Assembly: GCF_000284455.1 (NCBI RefSeq)
Contig: NC_017039.1
Coordinates: 2,550,001-2,582,000 of the forward strand
Source: Synechocystis sp. PCC 6803 substr. PCC-P
GTDB taxonomy: Bacteria > Cyanobacteriota > Cyanobacteriia > Cyanobacteriales > Microcystaceae
Reading direction: 5' to 3'
Length of the DNA: 32,000 nt
A model generated the notes under the pieces. It searched no databases and had not been told where the DNA came from. It saw nothing but the letters and a program-made list of their open reading frames with translations. The translations under genes and the position numbers were made by a program. Position 1 is the first letter of the stretch, and every line of letters starts with the position of its first letter. Positions 4,641-23,071 of the stretch are shown in pieces.

Positions 4641-6146
4641 ATGAGTTATCTGAACCTAGACACATTCATGACATTGGTTTTACCTAAACTCTTACGCATG
4701 ACCCTGGTTAGTTTTGTAATTGCCAGTGTTGTGGGGTCAGTGGTGGGCTGGATCGCTACTCTAATTTGGCGGGGAAAAAATTTATCGGATTTATCAGATT
4801 CTCCCAACCCCAGGGGATGGTTAATCAAACCGGCCATATTTGGCTCCTTCATTGGTATGGTACTCATCGGCCTATTACCCATCGAAGCGAATCCAGCTTC
4901 CCTTGTTGGTGGCCCCTATTCGGGGCTGTGGTTTTTGATGATGTTTGTGTTTTTAGCTCCCCTCGGTTCCATTGCTGGGGCCGTTATCGGTGCAACCCTG
5001 GGAACTAAGCAGTTTTCTCAAATTAAGCGGGAAAAGTTAATTGGCATTGTTTTACTGTTAACCTACTTTTTTGCCACTGTTGTCCTTTATGTTGGCCTGG
5101 CTCCCCCGGCATTGGTCATGGAAAAACCGACCGGAAATGATCCTTTTCCGGTGGTAGGTGAACTGAAGGGTTATGAAAGTGGGCCTAAAGACCTTGCCCT
5201 CAGTGATAACGGTCAACAACTGGCGGTGGTAACGGTGCGATATGGGGAAGACAAGGTTGAAATTTGGGATTTGCCCCGCAAAAAGGTTTTATATTCCTTT
5301 AAGACCAAGCCCAATAGCTCAGTAACCCTAAAAGATATTCTTTCATCTCTAGAATTTAGCAAGGATGGCCAACAGTTAATCACTGCGGCTGTTCAGCAAG
5401 TGCAGGTGCGGGATTTAACCAACGGTGCAGTGCAAATGCGCTTAGAAGGAGGAGAATTAGCCTATCCGATCGCCGATAATAAGCTGGTAACGTTGGCGTC
5501 GGTGGATGCCTGGGCAAATGAGCCAGAACCCCATAACATCAAGGTTTGGGACTTAGACACCGGGAAATTATTGCAAACCATTAATGCCGATCTGGCCCCC
5601 ACGGAACGATTCAGTGTGCCCATTGCAATTAGTCCTGATGGTCGTTTAGTGGCTTTTCCCCCCGGACTTTATAGCGATCGCATTGAAATTTGGGATATAG
5701 GCAACCAGAAACAAGTTACAGCCCTAACCAGTAACCAGCCAGCGGGGGTTTTGTCCCTGGCATTTTCCCCGGATGGAGAACAATTGGCCGTTGCTCTGGG
5801 TCAAGGTGCCCCCCTTTCCGTTTGGGATTGGCGATCGCCAAAGCAAGTCAAGACCATTGCCAAGGCTGACCGGGCTGAAGTTTTGTATTGGACGGAACAG
5901 GGAATTTTTGTGGGTAGCGATGGTGCTTTCCAGGTGTGGGATCCACAAACGGGAGAGGCTCGGCAAAAGCTGGATTTACAACCAACAGAGGAAAGGGCAA
6001 AGAGTGATCTCCGATTTCCCCTTGGCCCCTCGGCTCTGAGCGCTGACCGTACAACTCTGGCGGTTTATATTCCTCAACAAGGTATCCGGGTCTGGCGGGT
6101 TGAGGTGGCCCCAAAAAAGCGGACAGGGGAGAAAGCTCTAAACTAA
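4641..6146 (+). CDS. membrane-anchored WD40 beta-propeller protein
   Basis: The ORF opens at TTG 4608, and ATG 4641 (MSYLNLD...) is the likelier start. About 160 aa with roughly four hydrophobic helices comes first. Seven degenerate WD-like blades follow, each ending in a [VI]W[DR] strand: VEIWDL, VQVRDL, IKVWDL, IEIWDI, LSVWDW, FQVWDP, IRVWRV. Contains HIP1 sites at 5674 and 5831. Confidence 0.8.
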   Translation: MSYLNLDTFMTLVLPKLLRMTLVSFVIASVVGSVVGWIATLIWRGKNLSDLSDSPNPRGWLIKPAIFGSFIGMVLIGLLPIEANPASLVGGPYSGLWFLMMFVFLAPLGSIAGAVIGATLGTKQFSQIKREKLIGIVLLLTYFFATVVLYVGLAPPALVMEKPTGNDPFPVVGELKGYESGPKDLALSDNGQQLAVVTVRYGEDKVEIWDLPRKKVLYSFKTKPNSSVTLKDILSSLEFSKDGQQLITAAVQQVQVRDLTNGAVQMRLEGGELAYPIADNKLVTLASVDAWANEPEPHNIKVWDLDTGKLLQTINADLAPTERFSVPIAISPDGRLVAFPPGLYSDRIEIWDIGNQKQVTALTSNQPAGVLSLAFSPDGEQLAVALGQGAPLSVWDWRSPKQVKTIAKADRAEVLYWTEQGIFVGSDGAFQVWDPQTGEARQKLDLQPTEERAKSDLRFPLGPSALSADRTTLAVYIPQQGIRVWRVEVAPKKRTGEKALN

Positions 6147-6168
6147 AAACCGCAACCGAGGAAAGTTT

Positions 6169-6249
6169 ATGAGCCAAAAGAAAAGACAGTATAGCGCCGA
6201 ATTCAATGCCACTTTGGCCTTGCAAGCAGTACAGCAAAGAGCGAGATAG
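6169..6249 (+). pseudogene. 26-codon remnant resembling the N-terminus of an IS3-type OrfA (HTH_Tnp_1) transposase
   Basis: ATG 6169 ... TAG 6247-6249 encodes MSQKKRQYSAEFNATLALQAVQQRAR. The K/R-rich start followed by YSAEF.A..AL.A is the usual opening of HTH_Tnp_1 transposase ORFs. It is truncated after 26 codons. Confidence 0.4.
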
Positions 6250-6444
6250 TTAGGACAATTTTCTCAACGCTACATCAAATCCAGAAATCAGCGATTCTCC
6301 ATTACTAACAAGTTGGGAAACATAACGTTTTAGTTTCGCCCAGAACTTCTCAATTTTGTTCAAGTCCGGTGAATATGACGGTAAAAATATAACCTCACCC
6401 CCAGCTTTTGCTATATCACGCATAATCCCGATTAAAACCCCCAC
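6250..6444 (-). pseudogene. C-terminal fragment of an IS630/Tc1-mariner family DDE transposase
   Basis: VIFLPSYSPDLNKIEKFWAKLKRY matches the conserved LPPYSPDLNPIE.FW..LK block carrying the last acidic catalytic residue of IS630-family transposases. Only about 64 codons remain. No upstream catalytic region is present. Confidence 0.75.
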
Positions 6445-6481
6445 AGGACTTACGCAAGATAGATGAGGTTAAGGTGGTAGG

Positions 6482-16095: not shown

Positions 16096-16800
16096 ATGGC
16101 TAAAATCCCTACTATTGATCGCCGTCAGTTAATCCAATATGGCGGAGCTTTCCTCGGCACTAGCTTGATGGCCACCATACTGGGCAATCAAATGGCTGGT
16201 AACCCGGCTGCCCAGGCCCAGTCTGCTAACCAAACGCCCCAGCAACTTTTAACGGAATTGATGGAGGGCAATGGACGTTTTGCCGCACAAAAAAGGGTTA
16301 AGGCCAACCAAGACCTCTATCGTCTTGCGGAAGTGGCCCAAGGTCAAAATCCCTTTGCCGCTATCCTTAGTTGTGCCGATTCCCGAGTACCGCCGGAGAT
16401 TATCTTTGATCAGGGTTTAGGGGATTTGTTCATCTGTCGCATTGCCGGCAACGTCGCAACCCCTCAGGAGGTGGGAAGCTTGGAATTTGGCACCCTAGTT
16501 TTGGGAGCAAAGGTGTTGATGGTTTTGGGACACCAAGGTTGTGGGGCTGTGAAAGCCGCCATGGATGGGGGAGATTTACCGGGACAAATTGGCAGTGTGA
16601 TCAAAAAAATTGATATCGGCTCTGTTACCGATGACAGCAGTAATGCCGCCAGTGTGGTCATGGCCACGAAAGCCAACGTTGAACACCAAATGGCAGTACT
16701 CATACAATCCCCGGTGCTAAGTCAATTGATAGCTGAAGAAAGGTTATTGATTATGGGCGCTTACTACAATCTAGAGTCGGGCATTGTAACACTGTTGTAG
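16096..16800 (+). CDS. ecaB: beta-class carbonic anhydrase with twin-arginine (Tat) signal peptide
   Basis: Zinc ligand motifs CADSRVPPE and GHQGCGAV. The N-terminus MAKIPTIDRRQLIQYGGAFLGTSLMA...AQAQ has an RR Tat motif plus an h-region. The ORF extends to 16009, but ATG 16096 places the RR motif in the normal position. Confidence 0.85.
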   Translation: MAKIPTIDRRQLIQYGGAFLGTSLMATILGNQMAGNPAAQAQSANQTPQQLLTELMEGNGRFAAQKRVKANQDLYRLAEVAQGQNPFAAILSCADSRVPPEIIFDQGLGDLFICRIAGNVATPQEVGSLEFGTLVLGAKVLMVLGHQGCGAVKAAMDGGDLPGQIGSVIKKIDIGSVTDDSSNAASVVMATKANVEHQMAVLIQSPVLSQLIAEERLLIMGAYYNLESGIVTLL

Positions 16801-16801
16801 T

Positions 16802-17572
16802 TCAATCAATCAAGACATCTTCCCCGGAATCGCTTTGGCTGGCTTCCCATTCCACATTGGGCATGGACTCGAAAGCTTGACGTACATAGGATTCCCACAG
16901 GCTACGCATTTTAGCCAGGTAGGGATCTCCCAAGCGTAGTTGTAGTGTATGGCGCACGGAAAAATGATTGGCCTCCACCATGGTCAGATTAATGGGGGGC
17001 CCAACGGAAATATTTGACTTCATAGTGGAGTCAATGGAAAGCAAGGCGCATTTGGCCATGGCTTCCAGGGGGGTGTCATAGGTGATGGTGCGGTCCAGCA
17101 ACGGCTTGCCATACTTAGTTTCGCCAATTTGTAGGAAGGGAGTCTCCTTGGTGGCTTGGATGAAATTACCCTGGGGATAAATCAAGTACAATTCCTGGTG
17201 CGGTTCCCCCTTAATTTGCCCTCCCAAGAGGAAATTGCACTGAAAATCAATGCCATCTTTTTCTAGCCATGGTCGGTCTTTTTCCTGCATTTCCCGCACC
17301 TTACCGCCGATGTAAGTGGCCACTTCGTGCATAGTGGCAATGTTGTGGAGATGGTCCCCGTCATCCCGCTGGATATCTCGGTCAATCTGATGGAGCACCG
17401 CCTGGGTAATGGCTAGGTTGCCGGAGGTGCAAAGAATTAAAATTCGATCGCCAGGGAGAGAATAATCAAATAATTTCTTATAGGCGGAAGTATAATCTAC
17501 CCCCGCATTAGTGCGGGAATCTGCCCCCATGACCATGCCAAAACGATTAATTAAACCCAAACAATAGGTCAT
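16802..17572 (-). CDS. Anbu-type proteasome beta-subunit homologue (peptidase T1 family)
   Basis: MTYCLGLINRFGMVMGADSRTNAG is the characteristic Ntn-hydrolase start, with Thr directly after Met. About 255 aa. The ORF track opens at TTG 17578 (MAM-T...), while ATG 17572 makes Thr the residue exposed after Met removal. Confidence 0.85.
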   Translation of the reverse strand: MTYCLGLINRFGMVMGADSRTNAGVDYTSAYKKLFDYSLPGDRILILCTSGNLAITQAVLHQIDRDIQRDDGDHLHNIATMHEVATYIGGKVREMQEKDRPWLEKDGIDFQCNFLLGGQIKGEPHQELYLIYPQGNFIQATKETPFLQIGETKYGKPLLDRTITYDTPLEAMAKCALLSIDSTMKSNISVGPPINLTMVEANHFSVRHTLQLRLGDPYLAKMRSLWESYVRQAFESMPNVEWEASQSDSGEDVLID

Positions 17573-17598
17573 AGCCAAAGTGTGATGATTTTAGTAAT

Positions 17599-20500
17599 TC
17601 AAGGGGAGGTGAGACAATTTTGCAACCAAGCGACAATGTCCGCCGCCGTAGTTTGGGATTCCCGCAACTGAAAATAGGGCAACACCACAGTTTTCGGGGC
17701 CGGCGTCACCCCCAAAATGGCGATCGGGCCATGGAAAGTGCCCAACTGCTGCCAAAGTTGTTCCAGGTCTAGGGGGGAGGGACTCAACTGTTCGAACAAC
17801 AGCAGAAGGGGATGACCTTGCTTCCGTTGTAGTTGATGCCAGTAGAACCGCAGTTTAGATAAATTATCAGGGATAGCTCCGTCAAATTCAGGACAATCTT
17901 GGTCAAGCATTTGGTCGTAGATATCCACACTGGGATTATCCAAGTTCAAAAATTGACTAGTATCAATCCAAATTATCCGACAACCATTGAGGGGATCACT
18001 TTCCCCCTGTAAAGTTTGGGCCAGGGAGTATCGGAAAAAGGATCTTTGTTTAGAACTTTTCCCAGGAATACTGGTGCCGGACACCGCCAGGGGAGTTTGA
18101 TGCCATGCTTGATAAAAGTCAGCATAGGTCATTTGTCGGGCACAGTACCAAAAAATTTGCCAATGGTCTGCCAAGTTTTCCCCTTGGGGCCGGGCACATA
18201 GCTCCCGCAACTGATAAACCACCGTGGGTAATAACTTACGGGGCACAATTTTGATCAAAGCCTGGGTTCCATCCTGACGGACCCGATCTTCAGGATTTTC
18301 CAGCAGTAATCCCACCAGGGCTTGGGTCACTTCCCGATTGTTAGAGCCGATTTGGGCCAAGGTTTTCACCACACCCCGGAGTATTTCTGCCTCAGTATCG
18401 GTGCCAACCACACGGATTAGGGCCGCCAACACAGCAGGATTATTTTTTCCCACCAGGGCTAAATCTTGGGCGGCCGCTAGGCGGATACTTTCGTTGTCGC
18501 CATTTTGCAGGAGATTGATCAGGGCCATGAGGGCAGAAAGGTTACCTGGATCAATGGTGGCTAGACTGGCGGCGGCCTGTCGTTGGCCATAGGGATCCTC
18601 CTTGTTACGCAATAGACGTAGGAGAGTATTAATGGCGATGGGATTACCTGGATCAATGCGGCCTAAAATTTCGGCCCAAGTTTGGAGATGCTCGCTGGTT
18701 TCGGTGTTTTCCAACAAATATACCAGGGAAGACAAAATGCCGACGTTCTGGGGATCGACTTTTAGCAGAGCTTGGATAGTTTCATTGAGCAACCAGTCCC
18801 CTTCTTCCGTGCGGGGTTGGGCCACGGCTTTTTCCACTAGGGTAGTTAGGGTGGCGATCGCCGAGGGGTCTCCCTGGCCAATTTTGGCCAGACTACTGAC
18901 AATTAACCAACGGACAAAAACATCCTCCTCCGCCATCAATAGGTCAGCTAAGCCAGCTACGACGGTGGGCGACGGCACTTCCACTTCCCCCAGACTATAG
19001 ATGGCTTGTTTTCGCAACGGTAGGGGTTGATCTGCTTGGATATGCCTTTGGAGAACGACCAGAGCAGTGGGGTTGCCGGGGTCAATTTTTTCTAGACTTT
19101 CGGCTGTCTGGCAGAGAAAAGCCCCAGGGGGATAAAGCCTTAGTTTTTGCAGCAGGCCGGCAATGACCAGGCTGTGGTTTTTGCCCACCACTTCCAAACA
19201 TTGCAACACCTGACGATGGTGCAGAACCGATAATTTGGGAGAAAGAAAATCCAGCAGAGCTTTAATCACCGGCAAGTTGCCCACGGCACAATGGGCTAAG
19301 GTCTGGAGGGCTAGGCTGTAATCTTTTTGGCCAGGGCGCAATGCCGCCAAGAAAGTAGCTACCCCGGGGGAACTATTGGGATCAATTAAAATCAGTGCGG
19401 AGGCAATGGCAAAGCGCAAACTAGATTGTTCATGGAGGGCTAACTGTTGCTCTAAAACTTCGATCGCCTGGGGAAATCCCTGCCCCCACTGTCCCAGCCA
19501 TTGGCAGCATTGACCATATATCCGGTCATCTTCGGTGGTTTGTAGAATTTTGAGCAGGGCTTGGAGCACTGGCGCGCGGTGGGTTTCAGTCAAAAGCGCC
19601 GTCACCCATTTTTGTTGACCCCCATTACCTGCCATGGGCGGCAATCCCTGGGCTAATAATCTGGCCACAATTTCATCGGCCTGGGCAAGGTCGGGACATT
19701 CCCTTAGGGCCAGGGCCGCACACTCCAAAGCCCTGAGTCCGTAAAAATTTTCCGGGCTACAACGGTCGTCAAACTCCAACATTGCCTGGAGAAAGGCTTG
19801 TTTATTGACTAAGCTGATATCTTCCCTTCCCCACCAAAAGGCCAATACCCTCTGCCACTCTGGATCGAAAATACGATACTGATGCCGATAAATATCTAGG
19901 AAAAAGTGCCAATCGGCGATCGCCAGGGCGGCAAAATAATCCCGAAAAGTGTCGTCGGCAAAGCCATAGCCCCTTTCCCAAACGCCTTTGCGCACAGCAG
20001 TCTTGGGAATTAACCAGCCCAATTGCAAAGCCGAACGCAACAGGGGGGAATCTTTGCCAAAAATTTTTTCCACTTCCACCGGGGCCAGGGGCCGATGGTC
20101 AGCTCGGTTTTCCCCCAGCATTTGTTTAGCTAATTGACCCAAAAGCTGGGCCAACTCATCCTGCTGTCCTGGTTTGGTAGGGGCCCATTCACTCTGCCAC
20201 AGATAAAAAGCCTTAACTAATTTGTTATACAGAGCTCCACTGCTGACGGGAAAGTCCCTCGGTTGATCTGCCCAAAAGCGACAGCACAGCATTAAGCGCC
20301 GGGGACGGAGGAGATAGGGACGTAAATACCTCACCGAGGGATTGGCCAGGGCCTCTTTCAAAGCATTGGCTAGGGCATTGGGCTTACCGGGGTTTTCCGG
20401 TTGACCCGGGCGATCGGCGCTGAAATAATCTTCAATGGCGATTTCCACGTTATCAGGATAGACCAGTGGCTCGATTTGATAACGGGTAAAACCGGCCAGT

Positions 20501-21318
20501 CCCCGGGGATCGTTGCGCCTGGTGTCCGGACGACAACTCAACAGCACCGGAGTGGTGGGCACTTCCGCCAAACTATCCTTGAGCCAGGTAAGGCTGCCTT
20601 GGGCCCCGGACATCTGGCTTGGGTCGGTAAAGGTGTAATCAATGCCGTCTAACACTAACCAAAACTGCCCCGTCTGGAGTCCCAGCAGTAAACTATCCCG
20701 CCAAGTTGCCGGGGGAATTTCTTCTTCGAGGGCCATGGCTTCTTGTAACCAAGGACCAAATAGATAGTCTTTGATGCTCCGGTGTTTAAAACGAGAGGGG
20801 TTAAGCCAGATGGGTAAGCAATGGGCCTGGCCTTCTTGGTGGCGTTGCCAGAGCCCCTGGGCAAAATGTTGCAAAAAAATTGTTTTCCCAGATCCCGCTT
20901 CCCCCACGATCGCCAGGTAACGGCTTTTTTCCCCTCCCTCGGCGATGGGAGTTAATAAACTGTCCAAAAATTCCAGGGGGCCATAGCTAGCCGGGGCGTT
21001 GTGGCCGCCGGTAGATCCGCTGGCAATAACCTTAAGGGAACGGGGAATGCGACCGGCTTTTTTCACAACCCATTCCGGCTGAGTTTGCACTGAGGTGCAG
21101 GGGAGAGCCCGGTAGAGCAACTGTTGACATACCGTGGCCCAGTCGGGGACATTCGGGGAACTTTCCTGGTTATTTTCTTGACCGTGGTGATTGTTCGCTG
21201 TCCCTGAAAGGCTGGAGGAGTGGACCATGGTAGTTGCCAACAAGGTGGGGAGGAAGCAGGAATTGGGGGCGATCGCCAGGAATTTTGGGTCACAGGCAGA
21301 ATAAATTCCCTCTGGCAT
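17599..21318 (-). CDS. STAND/NACHT-type P-loop NTPase fused to HEAT (PBS-lyase-like) repeats, 1239 aa
   Basis: ATG 21318. Walker A GEAGSGKT (nt 20881-20904). Walker B FWLVLDGID (nt 20638-20664). About a dozen repeats by eye of the type L..IDPGNP.A...L..LL....D...R..AA (EKIDPGNPTALVVL, GRIDPGNPIAINTLLRLL, ATIDPGNLSALMALINLL, LVGKNNPAVLAALIRVV, QIGSNNREVTQALVGLL). A C-terminal region of about 175 aa is unassigned. An alternative start exists at Met31 (21228). Confidence 0.85.
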   Translation of the reverse strand: MPEGIYSACDPKFLAIAPNSCFLPTLLATTMVHSSSLSGTANNHHGQENNQESSPNVPDWATVCQQLLYRALPCTSVQTQPEWVVKKAGRIPRSLKVIASGSTGGHNAPASYGPLEFLDSLLTPIAEGGEKSRYLAIVGEAGSGKTIFLQHFAQGLWQRHQEGQAHCLPIWLNPSRFKHRSIKDYLFGPWLQEAMALEEEIPPATWRDSLLLGLQTGQFWLVLDGIDYTFTDPSQMSGAQGSLTWLKDSLAEVPTTPVLLSCRPDTRRNDPRGLAGFTRYQIEPLVYPDNVEIAIEDYFSADRPGQPENPGKPNALANALKEALANPSVRYLRPYLLRPRRLMLCCRFWADQPRDFPVSSGALYNKLVKAFYLWQSEWAPTKPGQQDELAQLLGQLAKQMLGENRADHRPLAPVEVEKIFGKDSPLLRSALQLGWLIPKTAVRKGVWERGYGFADDTFRDYFAALAIADWHFFLDIYRHQYRIFDPEWQRVLAFWWGREDISLVNKQAFLQAMLEFDDRCSPENFYGLRALECAALALRECPDLAQADEIVARLLAQGLPPMAGNGGQQKWVTALLTETHRAPVLQALLKILQTTEDDRIYGQCCQWLGQWGQGFPQAIEVLEQQLALHEQSSLRFAIASALILIDPNSSPGVATFLAALRPGQKDYSLALQTLAHCAVGNLPVIKALLDFLSPKLSVLHHRQVLQCLEVVGKNHSLVIAGLLQKLRLYPPGAFLCQTAESLEKIDPGNPTALVVLQRHIQADQPLPLRKQAIYSLGEVEVPSPTVVAGLADLLMAEEDVFVRWLIVSSLAKIGQGDPSAIATLTTLVEKAVAQPRTEEGDWLLNETIQALLKVDPQNVGILSSLVYLLENTETSEHLQTWAEILGRIDPGNPIAINTLLRLLRNKEDPYGQRQAAASLATIDPGNLSALMALINLLQNGDNESIRLAAAQDLALVGKNNPAVLAALIRVVGTDTEAEILRGVVKTLAQIGSNNREVTQALVGLLLENPEDRVRQDGTQALIKIVPRKLLPTVVYQLRELCARPQGENLADHWQIFWYCARQMTYADFYQAWHQTPLAVSGTSIPGKSSKQRSFFRYSLAQTLQGESDPLNGCRIIWIDTSQFLNLDNPSVDIYDQMLDQDCPEFDGAIPDNLSKLRFYWHQLQRKQGHPLLLLFEQLSPSPLDLEQLWQQLGTFHGPIAILGVTPAPKTVVLPYFQLRESQTTAADIVAWLQNCLTSP

Positions 21319-21399
21319 TCACTGTACCAAATCTACCTACCCTAGAACCGTTGGCCGGGGCAAATAATTACCGACAAATTCGCACTTCCACCAATCATG

Positions 21400-21428
21400 T
21401 AGTTTATTTTGACTATAAAAATAAACTA
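21400..21428. repeat. perfect 11-bp AT-rich inverted repeat with 7-nt loop
   Basis: tagtttatttt (21400-21410), gactata, aaaataaacta (21418-21428). It lies between the GST stop (21476) and the NACHT-HEAT start (21318). It could be a weak terminator for GST or an operator in the NACHT-HEAT promoter region. Confidence 0.5.
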
Positions 21429-21475: not shown

Positions 21476-22030
21476 TCAGCGGGCACCGATGGAAGCTTGG
21501 AAAGCCGGTCGTTGCACTAGGCCCTGGACGTAGGCCGCCACCGCAGGATAGTCGTCAAAATTAAGTTTGAGCATGATGGGGACATAGGCCAAAATTGAAC
21601 CGACGGCCACATCCACCACCGAAAATTTTTCTCCGAGGATAAATGGCGATCGCCCTAAAATTTTCTCCAAAGATTGCAACAGTCGGGGCATTTCCTTTTC
21701 CCGCACTGCTTCAATAAATAAACCATTGGCCAGGGTGGAATTGGCAAATAAAATCCACTGGTTAACTAGAGCTCTGGCCTGGGCATCGGCGGGAATGGTG
21801 CTAGCTTTTTCCGCTAAGTAAAGCAAAATTGCACCGGATTCCCAGAGATGAAAGTTCCCATCGGCGATCGCCGGCACCTTACCAAAGGGATTAATGGCTA
21901 AATAGGGAGCTTGGCGATGTTCCCCTTCCTTGAGGTTAACGTTGACGAATTCGTAGGGCAGGGATAATTCTTCTAAGTACCACTGAATGATGGAGGCTCG
22001 ACTTTGGGGGGCACCGTATAGTTTGATCAT
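21476..22030 (-). CDS. gst: glutathione S-transferase
   Basis: Thioredoxin-like N-domain (MIKLYGAP.SRAS, NPFGKVPAI, ESGAILLYLAEK) plus an alpha-helical C-domain. 184 aa. Confidence 0.9.
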   Translation of the reverse strand: MIKLYGAPQSRASIIQWYLEELSLPYEFVNVNLKEGEHRQAPYLAINPFGKVPAIADGNFHLWESGAILLYLAEKASTIPADAQARALVNQWILFANSTLANGLFIEAVREKEMPRLLQSLEKILGRSPFILGEKFSVVDVAVGSILAYVPIMLKLNFDDYPAVAAYVQGLVQRPAFQASIGAR

Positions 22031-22123: not shown

Positions 22124-23071
22124 CTACGGAAGATTAAAAACCACCATATCCTGGCCCACCACCGGCGATCGGGCAATGAGATCCCCTTTTAGATCGTAAA
22201 TCCACAGTCGTCGGAAGGAAAGTTTTTGGGCCCTCTGCCATAGGGCATCTAGGAGGGTTTGTTGCTGTTTGGGGGACAATTCCTGCCAGGAATCGCCTAC
22301 CGTCAAGGTCAAGCGACTGGCTAAAAAGTTTGGTTCGATGCGCTCCATCAACTGGGGAGGATAAAGTCCTTCTAAATCTACTAATTCCCGCTGAATCACC
22401 GCCAATAAACTCTGTTCCGGAGTTAAGGGGGCCAGGGGCAGGGGGGAAACGGCCACGGGTGCGGGGGGAGAGGGGGCTTCCAGGACTGTGGGTAATCCGG
22501 TCTCTTCAACTAAATTGGTTGTCTTTTCGGGAGATGTATTGACGGTATTGGGCGTGGAATCGGCCAGGGGCACCGGGGGCTGCTCTTTAGTCGGCAAAAG
22601 CGTTGCTACATTAGCCCATTGGGTCGCTAATTGATCCCAAAGTGGCGGCAGATTAAGGGGGGGAATACCAATCCAAAGGACAATCCCCACCAAAATTCCC
22701 AACAGGGCAGTGGCAATGGTGGCCAAAATACCGAATTTCCCTTTTTTACGGGGTTTGACTTTATTAACTTGGGGGGAAGCGCTAACATCTGTTTCTACAG
22801 ATTCAGCAAAAAAATCGTCCCATTGTTCCGTTTGCAGATCACCAGGTAGGGGGCCTGGTTGCAGAGGGGCGGGGGCAGAAGTTGCAGAACTATTGACCAA
22901 CACCGCTAAGCGGCTAGCCGTGGCCTGGAGGCGGTCAACGGCTGCTCGGGGAAGTTGGATGCCTTGTTGGGGATTGGCCTGTAACTTTTGAATTACCTGT
23001 TCAAGTTGCCCCAGGGTAGCTTCCAGTTGGGATGCGAGGGAGGGGTCTGATGGAGAAAATCGATCAGCCAT
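22124..23071 (-). CDS. hypothetical single-pass membrane protein with Pro-rich linkers
   Basis: Coiled-coil-like N-terminus. Basic patch KPRKKGKF followed by the TM helix GILATIATALLGILVGIVLWIGI. Pro-rich spacer (APSPPAPVAVSPLPLAPLTPE). Ordered C-terminal domain of about 100 aa. No family recognised. Confidence 0.65.
   Translation of the reverse strand: MADRFSPSDPSLASQLEATLGQLEQVIQKLQANPQQGIQLPRAAVDRLQATASRLAVLVNSSATSAPAPLQPGPLPGDLQTEQWDDFFAESVETDVSASPQVNKVKPRKKGKFGILATIATALLGILVGIVLWIGIPPLNLPPLWDQLATQWANVATLLPTKEQPPVPLADSTPNTVNTSPEKTTNLVEETGLPTVLEAPSPPAPVAVSPLPLAPLTPEQSLLAVIQRELVDLEGLYPPQLMERIEPNFLASRLTLTVGDSWQELSPKQQQTLLDALWQRAQKLSFRRLWIYDLKGDLIARSPVVGQDMVVFNLP

What the first reader, a model, noticed from the sequence alone, without database searches (positions are those of the whole stretch)
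16802..21318. Giant NACHT-HEAT STAND NTPase apparently co-transcribed with an Anbu proteasome homologue
Seen in the sequence: the 1239-aa NTPase/HEAT gene stops at 17599-17601, and the Anbu ATG is at 17572 on the same strand. The 26-nt spacer (minus strand ATTACTAAAATCATCACACTTTGGCT) has no hairpin and no room for a promoter plus terminator. Both genes carry HIP1 sites or native-looking composition, so this is not an obvious recent import. Established knowledge: Anbu is a proteasome beta-subunit homologue with no known substrate or regulator. In most bacteria it sits in an operon with ATP-grasp, alpha-E and transglutaminase-like genes, and none of these is in this window. STAND NTPases are nucleotide-driven oligomerising switches. 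HEAT-repeat proteins (Blm10/PA200) cap eukaryotic 20S particles. Inference: the pair could be a nucleotide-gated scaffold or activator for a proteasome-like protease, either as a signalling or quality-control module or as a STAND-type defence sensor with a protease effector.
Basis: partly seen in the sequence, partly recalled or inferred. Interest (0 to 1): 0.75.

Follow-up and report, generated by a model that had tools for sequence, protein, structure and literature searches.

The report
NACHT-HEAT gene beside Anbu: local synteny
In Synechocystis PCC 6803 a large NACHT-HEAT switch protein gene (sll0068) sits 26 bases upstream of the proteasome-like Anbu gene (sll0069), but this pairing occurs only in the Synechocystis genus and nothing else links the two, so it is most likely a local gene-order accident and not a new protease-regulator system.

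Summary
The window is Synechocystis sp. PCC 6803. sll0068 (NACHT + HEAT + NCC-H + NCAB1) stops at 17601-17599. sll0069, a clear Anbu (PDB 5loy, E 1.8e-76), starts at ATG 17572. The 26-nt spacer has no hairpin.

The proposed NTPase-protease module is not supported.
- Of 51 cyanobacterial Anbu loci, only 3 (all Synechocystis-like) have the NACHT gene upstream. 28 have a small zinc-ribbon gene there instead, and 10-13 have the classical ATP-grasp/Alpha-E/transglutaminase genes.
- On the NACHT side, the pairing is lost in one lineage nested inside the Synechocystis clade.
- Sister-clade orthologues are followed by moaE or other genes.
- None of 36 metagenomic relatives has Anbu within the up to 5 kb of flanking sequence held (26 with at least 900 nt downstream).
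- In a published sucrose gradient, Sll0069 runs in fractions 8-12 and Sll0068 appears only in the pellet.

sll0068 carries its own conserved extended -10-like motif and probably starts at M31 (about 1209 aa). Its Walker B glutamate is lost, it has no recognisable effector domain, and it is under purifying selection. Read-through into Anbu is plausible in PCC 6803 but unproven.

Verdict: two known-family genes in lineage-specific tandem. Interest is low to moderate.

The parts
16802..17572 (-). sll0069, Anbu (proteasome beta-subunit homologue), 256 aa. The stop codon is at 16802-16804. Thr2 becomes the N-terminal nucleophile after Met removal.
   Evidence: 5loy E 1.8e-76; 5nyw, 5lox, 5nyj and 5nyf E 1e-57 to 1e-64. 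One search gives an exact match to sll0069 of PCC 6803. All orthologues begin MTYCLGLINR.
17573..17598 (-). 26-nt spacer between the sll0068 stop and the sll0069 start. It has no hairpin. It contains a non-conserved -10-like TAAAAT at 17593-17588.
17599..21228 (-). sll0068 CDS from the conserved start (M31 of the maximal ORF) to the TGA at 17601-17599. About 1209 aa, NACHT-HEAT-NCC-H-NCAB1 STAND protein.
   Evidence: Orthologues in 6714 and L082 start MVHSSS or MSHSSS.
21229..21318 (-). The 30 codons at the 5' end of the maximal ORF. Probably 5'UTR and not coding. It contains a conserved HIP1 site.
   Evidence: The predicted transcription start falls at or after the ATG at 21318.
21321..21329 (-). 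Extended -10-like motif TGGTACAGT (TGnTAnnnT). It is conserved about 90-110 nt upstream of the start in sll0068 orthologues whether or not Anbu lies downstream. Putative promoter of sll0068.
   Evidence: L001, L002, L081, L082, L087, L083, L085, L088, L089, L091. Inferred from conservation, not mapped.
20416..20922 (-). NACHT NTPase module, residues 133-301 of the maximal ORF.
   Evidence: PF05729, 108 bits, cut-off 26.7.
20881..20904 (-). Walker A, GEAGSGKT (G139-T146). Intact.
20635..20661 (-). Walker B, WLVLDGIDY (residues 220-228). The NACHT signature D[GAS]hDE has lost its final Glu (Y228).
   Evidence: The E is lost in the whole sll0068 clade (Y/Q/F/S) and kept as DGVDE in remoter NACHT-HEAT-NCC-H relatives.
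18199..19638 (-). HEAT-repeat solenoid, about residues 561-1040. Presumed ligand- or partner-binding sensor.
   Evidence: HEAT_2, 2.5e-34, 4 stretches. One search gives weak CpcE/NblB-type HEAT matches.
18100..18171 (-). NCC-H motif, residues 1050-1073.
   Evidence: PF22730, 3.4e-10.
17617..18030 (-). NCAB1 C-terminal alpha/beta domain, residues 1097-1234.
   Evidence: PF22724, 4.3e-35. Model pLDDT is 84, a 3-layer alpha/beta fold. No PDB neighbour with E<0.01. No invariant polar residue.
21476..22030 (-). sll0067, glutathione S-transferase. It is the upstream member of the GST-NACHT-Anbu block kept in the Synechocystis clade. It probably has a separate transcript, given the 247-nt gap to M31 and the promoter-like motif in between.

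Best explanation
sll0068 and sll0069 are two genes with separate functions that became neighbours in the ancestor of the Synechocystis clade.

sll0069 is an ordinary cyanobacterial Anbu. It is an N-terminal-threonine peptidase that assembles on its own into a large homo-oligomer. In cyanobacteria its gene usually sits as the distal gene behind whatever lies upstream, most often a small zinc-ribbon protein gene.

sll0068 is a member of the cyanobacterial NACHT-HEAT-NCC-H-NCAB1 branch of STAND NTPases.
- It keeps its P-loop but has lost the Walker B glutamate.
- It has no recognisable effector domain.
- It is under purifying selection.
- It carries its own conserved promoter-like element and 5'UTR wherever it sits in the genome.

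Inferred mechanism for Sll0068: a nucleotide-binding, slowly or non-hydrolysing switch. Its HEAT solenoid binds a cellular ligand or partner, and its NCC-H/NCAB1 end mediates output or assembly.

Inferred transcription: it starts at the sll0068 promoter and probably reads through the 26-nt, hairpin-free spacer into sll0069 in PCC 6803. That would reflect compact gene packing, not a shared pathway.
For: Shown:
- Gene identities.
- From the Anbu side, the NACHT gene is upstream in only 3 of 51 cyanobacterial loci (L001, L002, L004). The zinc-ribbon gene c1 is upstream in 28. The classical CP_ATPgrasp_2/Alpha-E/transglutaminase set is present in 10-13. Proteobacterial loci have it in 27-29 of 29.
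- Anbu has a co-directional upstream ORF within 50 nt in 27 of 47 loci, from several unrelated families. A short spacer is therefore generic.
- From the NACHT side, GST-NACHT-Anbu is found in 6714 and L082. L087 has PsbU-NACHT followed by a convergent gene, and it is nested inside the clade in the NJ tree.
- L003 has Anbu at 85% identity but preceded by a squalene-hopene-cyclase-like gene.
- The sister clade is followed by moaE (L083/84, L089/90, L091) or other genes (L085, L088). The Snowella MAG carries the NACHT gene and Anbu on different contigs.
- None of 36 metagenomic relatives has Anbu within the up to 5 kb of flanking sequence held (26 with at least 900 nt downstream).
- Evolutionary rates are discordant: Anbu 83-98% identical versus NACHT 54-88%. 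dN/dS is 0.046 versus 0.11.
- A conserved TGnTAnAGT motif lies about 100 nt upstream of every sll0068 orthologue regardless of the downstream gene.
- Walker B E is lost and Walker A is kept.
- In the GradR sucrose gradient of PCC 6803, Sll0069 is in fractions 8-12 (peak 10), Sll0068 only in pellet fraction 20, and GST in fractions 2-6 (PMC12475003 Supplementary Data 2).
- The neighbourhood is housekeeping.
Against: - The GST-NACHT-Anbu block survives in at least three different flanking arrangements: 6803/6714/S. salina, L002 and L082. That is somewhat more retention than the flanks show.
- Sll0068 lacks any intrinsic effector, so it must act through something in trans.
- A second, unrelated STAND-TPR gene lies directly upstream of Anbu in Pleurocapsa CCALA 161 (L031).
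- Anbu has no known regulator, so absence of evidence is weak.
- The gradient data come from unstressed cells. Sll0068 was barely detected, so a transient or induced complex is not excluded.
- No transcript-level data could be retrieved.
Confidence: 0.7

Rival explanations
1. Sll0068 is a nucleotide-gated scaffold, adaptor or activator that recruits substrates to, or gates, the Anbu protease. The two would form a lineage-specific signalling, quality-control or defence module encoded by one operon.
For: - Co-directional genes with spacers of 24-87 nt in all six Synechocystis-clade lineages that keep the pair.
- The block is retained while both flanks changed.
- Sll0068 has no effector domain of its own, whereas relatives carry EAD4, CHAT, cyclase or SMEK N-termini.
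- NCAB1 has no conserved catalytic-type residue.
- An unrelated STAND-TPR gene sits next to Anbu in L031.
- The literature says no ATPase or interactor of Anbu is known (PMC3235984, PMC5666114).
Against: - The adjacency is absent from 44 of 47 other cyanobacterial Anbu loci and from all sister-clade and remoter NACHT relatives. It is lost once inside the clade.
- An equally tight NACHT-moaE pairing in the sister clade shows that such pairings arise without functional meaning.
- No co-sedimentation.
- No similarity to Blm10/PA200 and no HbYX C-terminus.
- The Walker B glutamate is lost, which argues against an ATP-driven unfoldase-type role.
- The major STAND surveys do not list proteasome-like effectors.
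Confidence: 0.12
2. Sll0068 is a stand-alone NLR-like anti-phage or conflict sensor, as shown for other bacterial NACHT proteins. Its position next to Anbu is irrelevant. Output would go through NCAB1 or an unlinked effector.
For: - NACHT module plus a repeat 'sensor' is the architecture of bacterial NLR-related defence proteins (10.1101/2022.07.19.500537).
- The NCC-H and NCAB domains were named in that survey.
- The gene evolves about 2-3 times faster than its neighbours.
- The gene travels with its own promoter to different genomic sites.
Against: - No significant match to a PADLOC defence model. The only hit is a weak HEAT-region match to OloA, 2.5e-05.
- Housekeeping neighbourhood with no mobile or defence genes.
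- Single-copy orthologue with stable synteny (GST upstream; moaE downstream in the sister clade).
- The HEAT region is the more conserved part (dN/dS 0.09) and the NTPase module the least conserved (0.18). This is the opposite of an arms-race receptor.
- Walker B E is lost and there is no effector domain.
Confidence: 0.2
3. sll0069 is transcribed mainly from its own promoter, located in the 3' end of sll0068 or in the spacer. An example is TTGTCT-18-TAAAAT at 17617-17588, which would give a very short leader. On this view the two genes are not an operon at all.
For: - A 9/12 promoter-like match ends 15 nt before the ATG.
- Cyanobacterial promoters often need only a -10 TAnnnT element (established knowledge).
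- Spacers of 68 and 87 nt in L004 and L082 leave room for signals.
- iBAQ levels of the two proteins differ strongly. Sll0069 is readily detected and Sll0068 is barely detected.
Against: - The count of promoter-like matches in the region is not above shuffled expectation (10 found versus 7.0 +/- 2.8).
- The TAAAAT hexamer is not conserved in S. salina (TGAAAT) or PCC 6714.
- No terminator or stable hairpin separates the genes.
Confidence: 0.3

Closest known systems
Anbu (ancestral beta subunit; structures 5NYW, 5NYF, 5NYJ, 5LOX, 5LOY; Valas & Bourne 2008, Fuchs et al. 2017)
   Same: - 40-60% class similarity over the full length to solved Anbu proteins (E 1e-57 to 1e-76).
- Thr directly after the initiator Met.
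- Length about 255 aa.
- Sediments as a large particle.
- No AAA+ partner encoded nearby.
   Different: - It is not in the classical CP_ATPgrasp/Alpha-E/transglutaminase operon, which is present in only 10-13 of 51 cyanobacterial loci.
- It is not preceded by the zinc-ribbon gene common in other cyanobacteria.
- In Synechocystis it follows a NACHT gene instead.
Bacterial NACHT / NLR-related proteins with HEAT sensors and NCC-H/NCAB C-terminal domains (Kibby et al. 2022/2023 survey; Pfam PF05729 + PF13646 + PF22730 + PF22724)
   Same: - Same domain order: NACHT-(winged helix)-HEAT-NCC-H-NCAB1.
- Intact P-loop.
- Cyanobacterial distribution.
- NCBI already names close homologues 'NACHT C-terminal alpha/beta 1 domain-containing protein'.
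   Different: - The Walker B signature D[GAS]hDE has lost its glutamate in the whole sll0068 clade.
- No N-terminal effector or EAD domain.
- The NTPase module evolves faster than the repeats.
- Housekeeping genomic context.
- No match to tested bNACHT defence models in PADLOC.
HEAT-repeat proteasome activators Blm10/PA200
   Same: Only the generic presence of a HEAT-type alpha-solenoid encoded next to a proteasome-fold peptidase.
   Different: - No detectable sequence similarity to any PDB chain.
- No C-terminal HbYX-type motif. The termini are ...LTSP, ...LTSS, ...FDQP and ...FDNA.
- Anbu has no alpha ring for such a cap to dock on.
- The proteins do not co-sediment.
Apoptosome/inflammasome-type STAND + protease pairs (Apaf-1/caspase-9; bacterial STANDs fused to caspase-like or CHAT peptidases)
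   Same: Conceptually this is a STAND switch next to a protease gene. Remote relatives of Sll0068 do carry an N-terminal CHAT peptidase (P0173).
   Different: - Here the protease is a separate, self-compartmentalising Ntn peptidase.
- There is no adaptor domain (CARD, EAD or Death-like) on either protein.
- The linkage is not conserved.

Membership tests
Anbu | Full-length sequence similarity to experimentally solved Anbu proteins | tested here: met
   5loy 1.8e-76, 5nyw 8.2e-64, 5lox 4.2e-62, 5nyj 7.3e-58, 5nyf 2.1e-57, covering residues 2-243.
Anbu | N-terminal nucleophile Thr directly after Met (no propeptide), plus the conserved Asp and Lys of the proteasome-fold active site | tested here: met
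   MTYCLG is invariant in all orthologues. GADSRTNAG and Y-K-K align with the consensus Anbu SDSRTNAG and F-R-K in the 5loy alignment.
Anbu | Operon with circularly permuted ATP-grasp, Alpha-E and transglutaminase genes | tested here: not met
   no homologue in the 32-kb window; present in 27-29 of 29 proteobacterial loci but in only 10-13 of 51 cyanobacterial loci, so this feature is typical and not obligatory.
Anbu | Self-assembly into a large homo-oligomer | tested here: inconclusive
   Published gradient: Sll0069 peaks in fraction 10 of 20, slightly deeper than PNPase at fraction 9. This is consistent with a several-hundred-kDa particle, but its composition was not determined.
NACHT-clade STAND NTPase | NACHT Pfam model above the gathering threshold | tested here: met
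   PF05729 at 108 bits versus a cut-off of 26.7, residues 133-301.
NACHT-clade STAND NTPase | Walker A GxxxxGK[ST] | tested here: met
   GEAGSGKT (139-146), conserved in all orthologues.
NACHT-clade STAND NTPase | Walker B signature D[GAS]hDE (as defined in 10.1101/2022.07.19.500537) | tested here: not met
   The variants are DGIDY in 6803, DGIDQ in 6714, DDVGQ in P0152 and DGID[FSY] in the sister clade. Remoter homologues keep DGVDE. The first Asp is kept and the final Glu is lost.
NACHT-clade STAND NTPase | C-terminal repeat or sensor region | tested here: met
   HEAT_2 in four stretches, followed by NCC-H and NCAB1.
Bacterial NACHT anti-phage defence systems (bNACHT) | Match to a curated defence-system model | tested here: not met
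   the only PADLOC hit is weak, OloA at 2.5e-05 on the HEAT region. Anbu gives no hit.
Bacterial NACHT anti-phage defence systems (bNACHT) | Effector domain, or location in a defence island | tested here: not met
   No effector domain is found. Neighbours are ilvN, GST, beta-carbonic anhydrase, purU, a glycosyltransferase, gltA, aspC and similar genes.
Bacterial NACHT anti-phage defence systems (bNACHT) | Protection against phage | not testable with these tools
   Needs cyanophage challenge of deletion or overexpression strains.
Proteasome activator of the Blm10/PA200 type | Sequence or structural relationship to Blm10/PA200, and a C-terminal HbYX docking motif | tested here: not met
   no PDB chain with E<=0.01; the C-termini LTSP, LTSS, FDQP and FDNA have no penultimate Tyr.
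Proteasome activator of the Blm10/PA200 type | Stable physical association with the protease particle | tested here: not met
   Sll0069 is in fractions 8-12 and Sll0068 only in pellet fraction 20. This was unstressed culture with weak Sll0068 detection, so a transient complex is not excluded.
Conserved two-gene module (functional operon) | Adjacency conserved across independent, distant lineages | tested here: not met
   The adjacency is confined to the Synechocystis clade, is lost once within it, and is replaced by NACHT-moaE in the sister clade.
Conserved two-gene module (functional operon) | Co-transcription | not testable with these tools
   The sequence is compatible with it: 26-nt spacer and no hairpin. 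No TSS or transcription-unit table could be read.

The most novel reading that the evidence does not exclude
In the Synechocystis lineage, an effector-less NACHT-HEAT protein with a disabled Walker B was recruited as a nucleotide-dependent adaptor or gate for the Anbu peptidase. It would replace the zinc-ribbon protein that precedes Anbu in most other cyanobacteria. This would be the first known regulator of Anbu and the first STAND switch coupled to a proteasome-fold protease.
Probability: 0.1. Interest if true: 0.8.

Novelty: already known. Interest (0 to 1): 0.28.

Why it matters
Anbu is a widespread proteasome relative with no known substrate, regulator or ATPase partner. A conserved link to a STAND NTPase would have opened that problem.

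The evidence here says the link is a genus-level positional feature, so it does not. The useful by-products are modest.
- A corrected start codon and a promoter candidate for sll0068.
- The finding that the sll0068 clade has a degenerate Walker B and no effector domain.
- The finding that the commonest neighbour of cyanobacterial Anbu is an undescribed small zinc-ribbon protein. That protein is a better lead for an Anbu partner than the NACHT gene.

Tried and rejected
- Literature. No paper in the library mentions sll0068 or sll0069 in its text. The search 'Anbu' + 'NACHT' returned only author-name noise.
- TSS and transcription-unit data. Supplements of Kopf 2014, the Grad-seq paper and the RNase E paper are not held. 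Supplements of PMC5386190 and PMC10349824 do not list the genes. Co-transcription therefore stays unresolved.
- NCAB1 fold. The model is good (pLDDT 84) but Foldseek against the PDB gives nothing below E 0.01 (TM <= 0.37). Possible vWA-, SIS- or ORC-like resemblances were rejected as insignificant.
- PDB sequence search with full-length Sll0068 gave no hit.
- PADLOC gave no defence-model hit.
- The spacer promoter (TAAAAT) was rejected as a conserved element because it is not conserved in 6714 or S. salina.
- The second STAND (c23, NB-ARC-like + TPR) next to Anbu in L031 was considered as independent support. It occurs in one locus directly and in two related loci three genes away. That is about what chance and shared synteny would give in STAND-rich cyanobacteria, so it is treated as weak.
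- Not used: the third homologue search, the representative-library search and the second structure job. None would have changed the verdict.
Full report
**Observation**

The window is part of the Synechocystis sp. PCC 6803 chromosome. The two proteins match sll0068 and sll0069 exactly.

A 1239-codon ORF occupies 17599..21318 on the minus strand, with its TGA at 17601-17599. The next ORF downstream starts at ATG 17572 and ends at 16802.

No terminator-like site lies near the spacer. The 111 nt around it fold no better than shuffled sequence (z = +1.08).

HIP1 density in sll0068 is 0.81 per kb, close to the window's 0.97 per kb.

**Gene identities**

sll0069 is an unambiguous Anbu. It matches five solved Anbu proteins, with E-values from 1.8e-76 (5loy) to 2.1e-57 (5nyf) across the whole length. 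Thr follows the initiator Met directly, and the DSRTNAG and Lys motifs align.

sll0068 carries four Pfam domains:
- NACHT, residues 133-301 (108 bits)
- HEAT_2, four stretches
- NCC-H, residues 1050-1073
- NCAB1, residues 1097-1234

The last two domains were named in the bacterial NACHT survey of Kibby et al.. NCBI already labels close homologues 'NACHT C-terminal alpha/beta 1 domain-containing protein'.

**Is the adjacency conserved? The Anbu side**

A scan of one genome per species with Anbu returned 51 cyanobacterial and 29 proteobacterial loci.

tblastn with the window's proteins finds the NACHT gene upstream of Anbu in only three loci:

| Locus | Organism | Anbu identity | NACHT identity |
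|---|---|---|---|
| L001 | S. salina | 98% | 88% |
| L002 | MAG | 93% | 63% |
| L004 | Synechocystis MAG | 84% | 54% |

The other loci show different upstream genes:
- Loci with Anbu 77-78% identical (L005, L006, L051, L042) have other genes upstream. Three of them have an NlpC/P60 gene 29 nt away.
- L003, with Anbu at 85% identity, is preceded by the end of a squalene-hopene-cyclase-like gene.
- Across the 47 loci with a readable upstream side, the co-directional upstream gene is a roughly 180-aa Gln/Met-rich zinc-ribbon protein (c1) in 28.

The classical CP_ATPgrasp_2/Alpha-E/transglutaminase genes are present in 10-13 of 51 cyanobacterial loci and in 27-29 of 29 proteobacterial loci. None of them is in the window.

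A co-directional ORF within 50 nt upstream of Anbu occurs in 27 of 47 loci and comes from several unrelated families. A short spacer is therefore a general habit of Anbu genes, not a property of this pair.

**Is the adjacency conserved? The NACHT side**

The sll0068 orthologue group comprises nine 90%-identity clusters. Their contexts are as follows.

| Locus | Context |
|---|---|
| PCC 6714 (L081) | GST-NACHT-Anbu, 24-nt spacer |
| L082 | GST-NACHT-Anbu, 87-nt spacer, both flanks different from 6803 |
| L087 (58% identical) | PsbU-NACHT, then a convergent gene; no GST, no Anbu |
| Sister clade: L083/84, L089/90, L091 | NACHT followed by moaE at 14-34 nt |
| Sister clade: L085/86, L088 | NACHT followed by unrelated genes |

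- In an NJ tree, L087 is nested inside the Anbu-adjacent clade. The pairing was therefore lost there.
- The Snowella MAG has the NACHT gene and Anbu on different contigs of one assembly.
- A metagenome scan with the C-terminal domains gave 36 more relatives. Of these, 26 have at least 900 nt of downstream sequence, and none has Anbu within the up to 5 kb of flanking sequence held.

The pairing is thus a genus-level feature. The equally tight NACHT-moaE pairing next door shows how little such spacing means for this gene.

One point favours the module idea. L002, L082 and the 6803 group have three different flank arrangements around an intact GST-NACHT-Anbu block.

**Transcription**

An extended -10-like motif (TGnTAnAGT; TGGTACAGT at 21329-21321) lies about 90-110 nt upstream of the conserved start of every orthologue examined. 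This includes orthologues without Anbu downstream.

The motif abuts the ATG at 21318. Orthologues begin at the equivalent of M31 (MVHSSS, ATG 21228). The real product is therefore probably about 1209 aa, with a roughly 90-nt leader that also keeps a HIP1 site. This is inferred from conservation, not mapped.

Read-through into sll0069 is plausible because nothing resembling a terminator intervenes.

A 9/12 promoter-like match (TTGTCT-18-TAAAAT, 17617-17588) exists. However, such matches are no more frequent here than in shuffled sequence, and the hexamer is not conserved in 6714 or S. salina.

I could not retrieve TSS tables.

**Physical association**

The GradR data set for PCC 6803 used a 10-40% sucrose gradient with 20 fractions, where fraction 20 is the pellet (PMC12475003). 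It lists all three proteins:
- Sll0069: fractions 8-12 in both gradients, peak at fraction 10 and just deeper than PNPase. This is consistent with a large homo-oligomer.
- Sll0068: only in the pellet fraction.
- GST: fractions 2-6.

There is no sign of a stable complex in unstressed cells. Sll0068 is near the detection limit, so this is weak negative evidence.

**What Sll0068 is**

- Walker A is intact (GEAGSGKT).
- The NACHT Walker B signature D[GAS]hDE has lost its glutamate throughout the sll0068 clade (DGIDY, DGIDQ, DDVGQ, DGIDF, DGIDS). Remoter NACHT-HEAT-NCC-H relatives keep DGVDE.
- The NTPase module is the fastest-evolving part and the HEAT region the slowest. Identity to P0152/P0153 is 40-47% versus 58-65%. 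dN/dS against 6714 is 0.18 versus 0.09. The whole gene is at 0.11, against 0.046 for Anbu. dS is near saturation, so these values are approximate.
- The gene is thus under purifying selection, and its repeats do not look like an arms-race receptor.
- There is no N-terminal effector. Relatives carry EAD4, CHAT, cyclase or SMEK domains there.
- The C-terminal 205 residues model confidently (pLDDT 84) as helices plus a three-layer alpha/beta domain. The model has no PDB neighbour below E 0.01. The family alignment has no invariant polar residue. NCAB1 therefore looks like a binding or assembly domain, not an enzyme.
- My inference is a nucleotide-binding, poorly hydrolysing switch whose output partner is unknown.

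**Genomic context**

The 32-kb window holds housekeeping genes. These include a FAD-linked oxidase (glcD-like), aspC, gltA, tRNase Z-like, purU, a beta-carbonic anhydrase, GST, ilvN, ybeY, dgkA, a UbiA family prenyltransferase and pipX. There are no mobile or defence genes. PADLOC gives no defence-model match.

- Full-length Sll0068 matches no PDB chain, including Blm10/PA200.
- Its C-terminus and those of its orthologues lack an HbYX-type motif.
- Anbu has no alpha ring (Fuchs et al. 2017).
- None of three STAND surveys mentions a proteasome-like effector.
- Valas and Bourne searched cyanobacteria for an ATPase matching Anbu's distribution and found none.

**Verdict**

The coordinates and identities are right, and co-transcription is plausible. 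The evidence favours two independently functioning genes in lineage-specific tandem (confidence about 0.7).

A real Sll0068-Anbu partnership restricted to Synechocystis is not excluded (about 0.1). It would be notable if true, because Anbu has no known partner.

Both genes belong to known, already annotated families, so interest is low to moderate.

Noticed in passing
L007 9440-10000 region and 27 other loci (e.g. L010, L013, L017, L021, L036, L043, L044); absent from the window: A gene for a roughly 180-aa Gln/Met-rich protein lies directly upstream of Anbu, co-directional, in 28 of 51 cyanobacterial loci. Gaps are 7-200 nt. The protein has the motifs SSPGQQQSQSSSF and PMQPMKMGNMSM and a C-terminal zinc ribbon (FCSQCG..GDRFCxSCG). 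It is the commonest neighbour of cyanobacterial Anbu and is not mentioned in the Anbu papers read.
   Followed up: partly
window 21321-21329 (-), and L001 1150, L002 6215, L081 5897, L082 5873, L087 1641, L083 5903, L085 5893, L088 5893, L089 5898, L091 1639: A conserved extended -10-like motif TGnTAnAGT lies about 100 nt upstream of every sll0068 orthologue. It is followed by a conserved leader containing a HIP1 site and CCCACCTTGTYGGCAA. This implies an autonomous promoter and a start at M31 (21228), not 21318.
   Followed up: yes
window 20635-20661 (-): The NACHT Walker B motif reads DGIDY. The catalytic-type Glu of D[GAS]hDE is lost in the entire sll0068 clade but kept in remoter NACHT-HEAT-NCC-H proteins. 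The NTPase module is also the fastest-evolving part of the protein.
   Followed up: yes
L083 9748-10245; L084 7247-7744; L089 9789-10271; L090 6383-6865; L091 5601-6071: In the sister clade, the sll0068 orthologue is followed at 14-34 nt by moaE (molybdopterin synthase subunit). This pairing is as tight as the NACHT-Anbu one and is kept across NACHT proteins only about 37-42% identical to Sll0068.
   Followed up: partly
L031 3159-5537 (+) and Anbu at 5707-6477; related genes in L012 and L016: In Pleurocapsa sp. CCALA 161, an unrelated STAND NTPase (NB-ARC/AAA_16-like P-loop plus TPR, 792 aa) lies directly upstream of Anbu on the same strand, with a 169-nt gap. The same family lies three genes away in two related MAGs. 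This is probably chance or shared synteny.
   Followed up: partly
window 16798-16804: The stop codons of the convergent genes sll0069 (Anbu, 16802-16804) and the beta-carbonic anhydrase gene (ORF ends at 16800) are separated by a single base. Their transcripts must overlap or terminate inside each other. In S. salina (L001) the carbonic anhydrase gene is absent and purU follows Anbu directly.
   Followed up: no
window about 21398-21428 (-): An AT-rich inverted repeat (TAGTTTATTTT ... AAAATAAACTA, 7-nt loop) lies 50-80 nt downstream of the GST stop. A similar repeat is present in S. salina but the region is deleted in PCC 6714. It is a possible GST terminator or regulatory hairpin.
   Followed up: no
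window 20401-20429 (+): The best promoter-like match in the region (TTGACC-17-AATAAT with an upstream TG, 10/12) points antisense into the NACHT-coding part of sll0068. This is a consensus match only.
   Followed up: no
L002 6258-9950: The sll0068 orthologue of this MAG is split into two ORFs of 651 and 598 aa. This is either a frameshift pseudogene or an assembly error.
   Followed up: no
window 22124-23071 (-): sll0066 (315 aa), between ilvN and GST, has no Pfam or NCBIfam match. It is syntenic in PCC 6714.
   Followed up: no
PMC12475003 Supplementary Data 2, rows 1084-1086: Both proteins are detected by mass spectrometry in PCC 6803. Sll0069 is a discrete mid-gradient particle that is insensitive to RNase. 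Sll0068 is seen only in the pellet fraction, which might reflect very large assemblies, membrane association or aggregation.
   Followed up: partly
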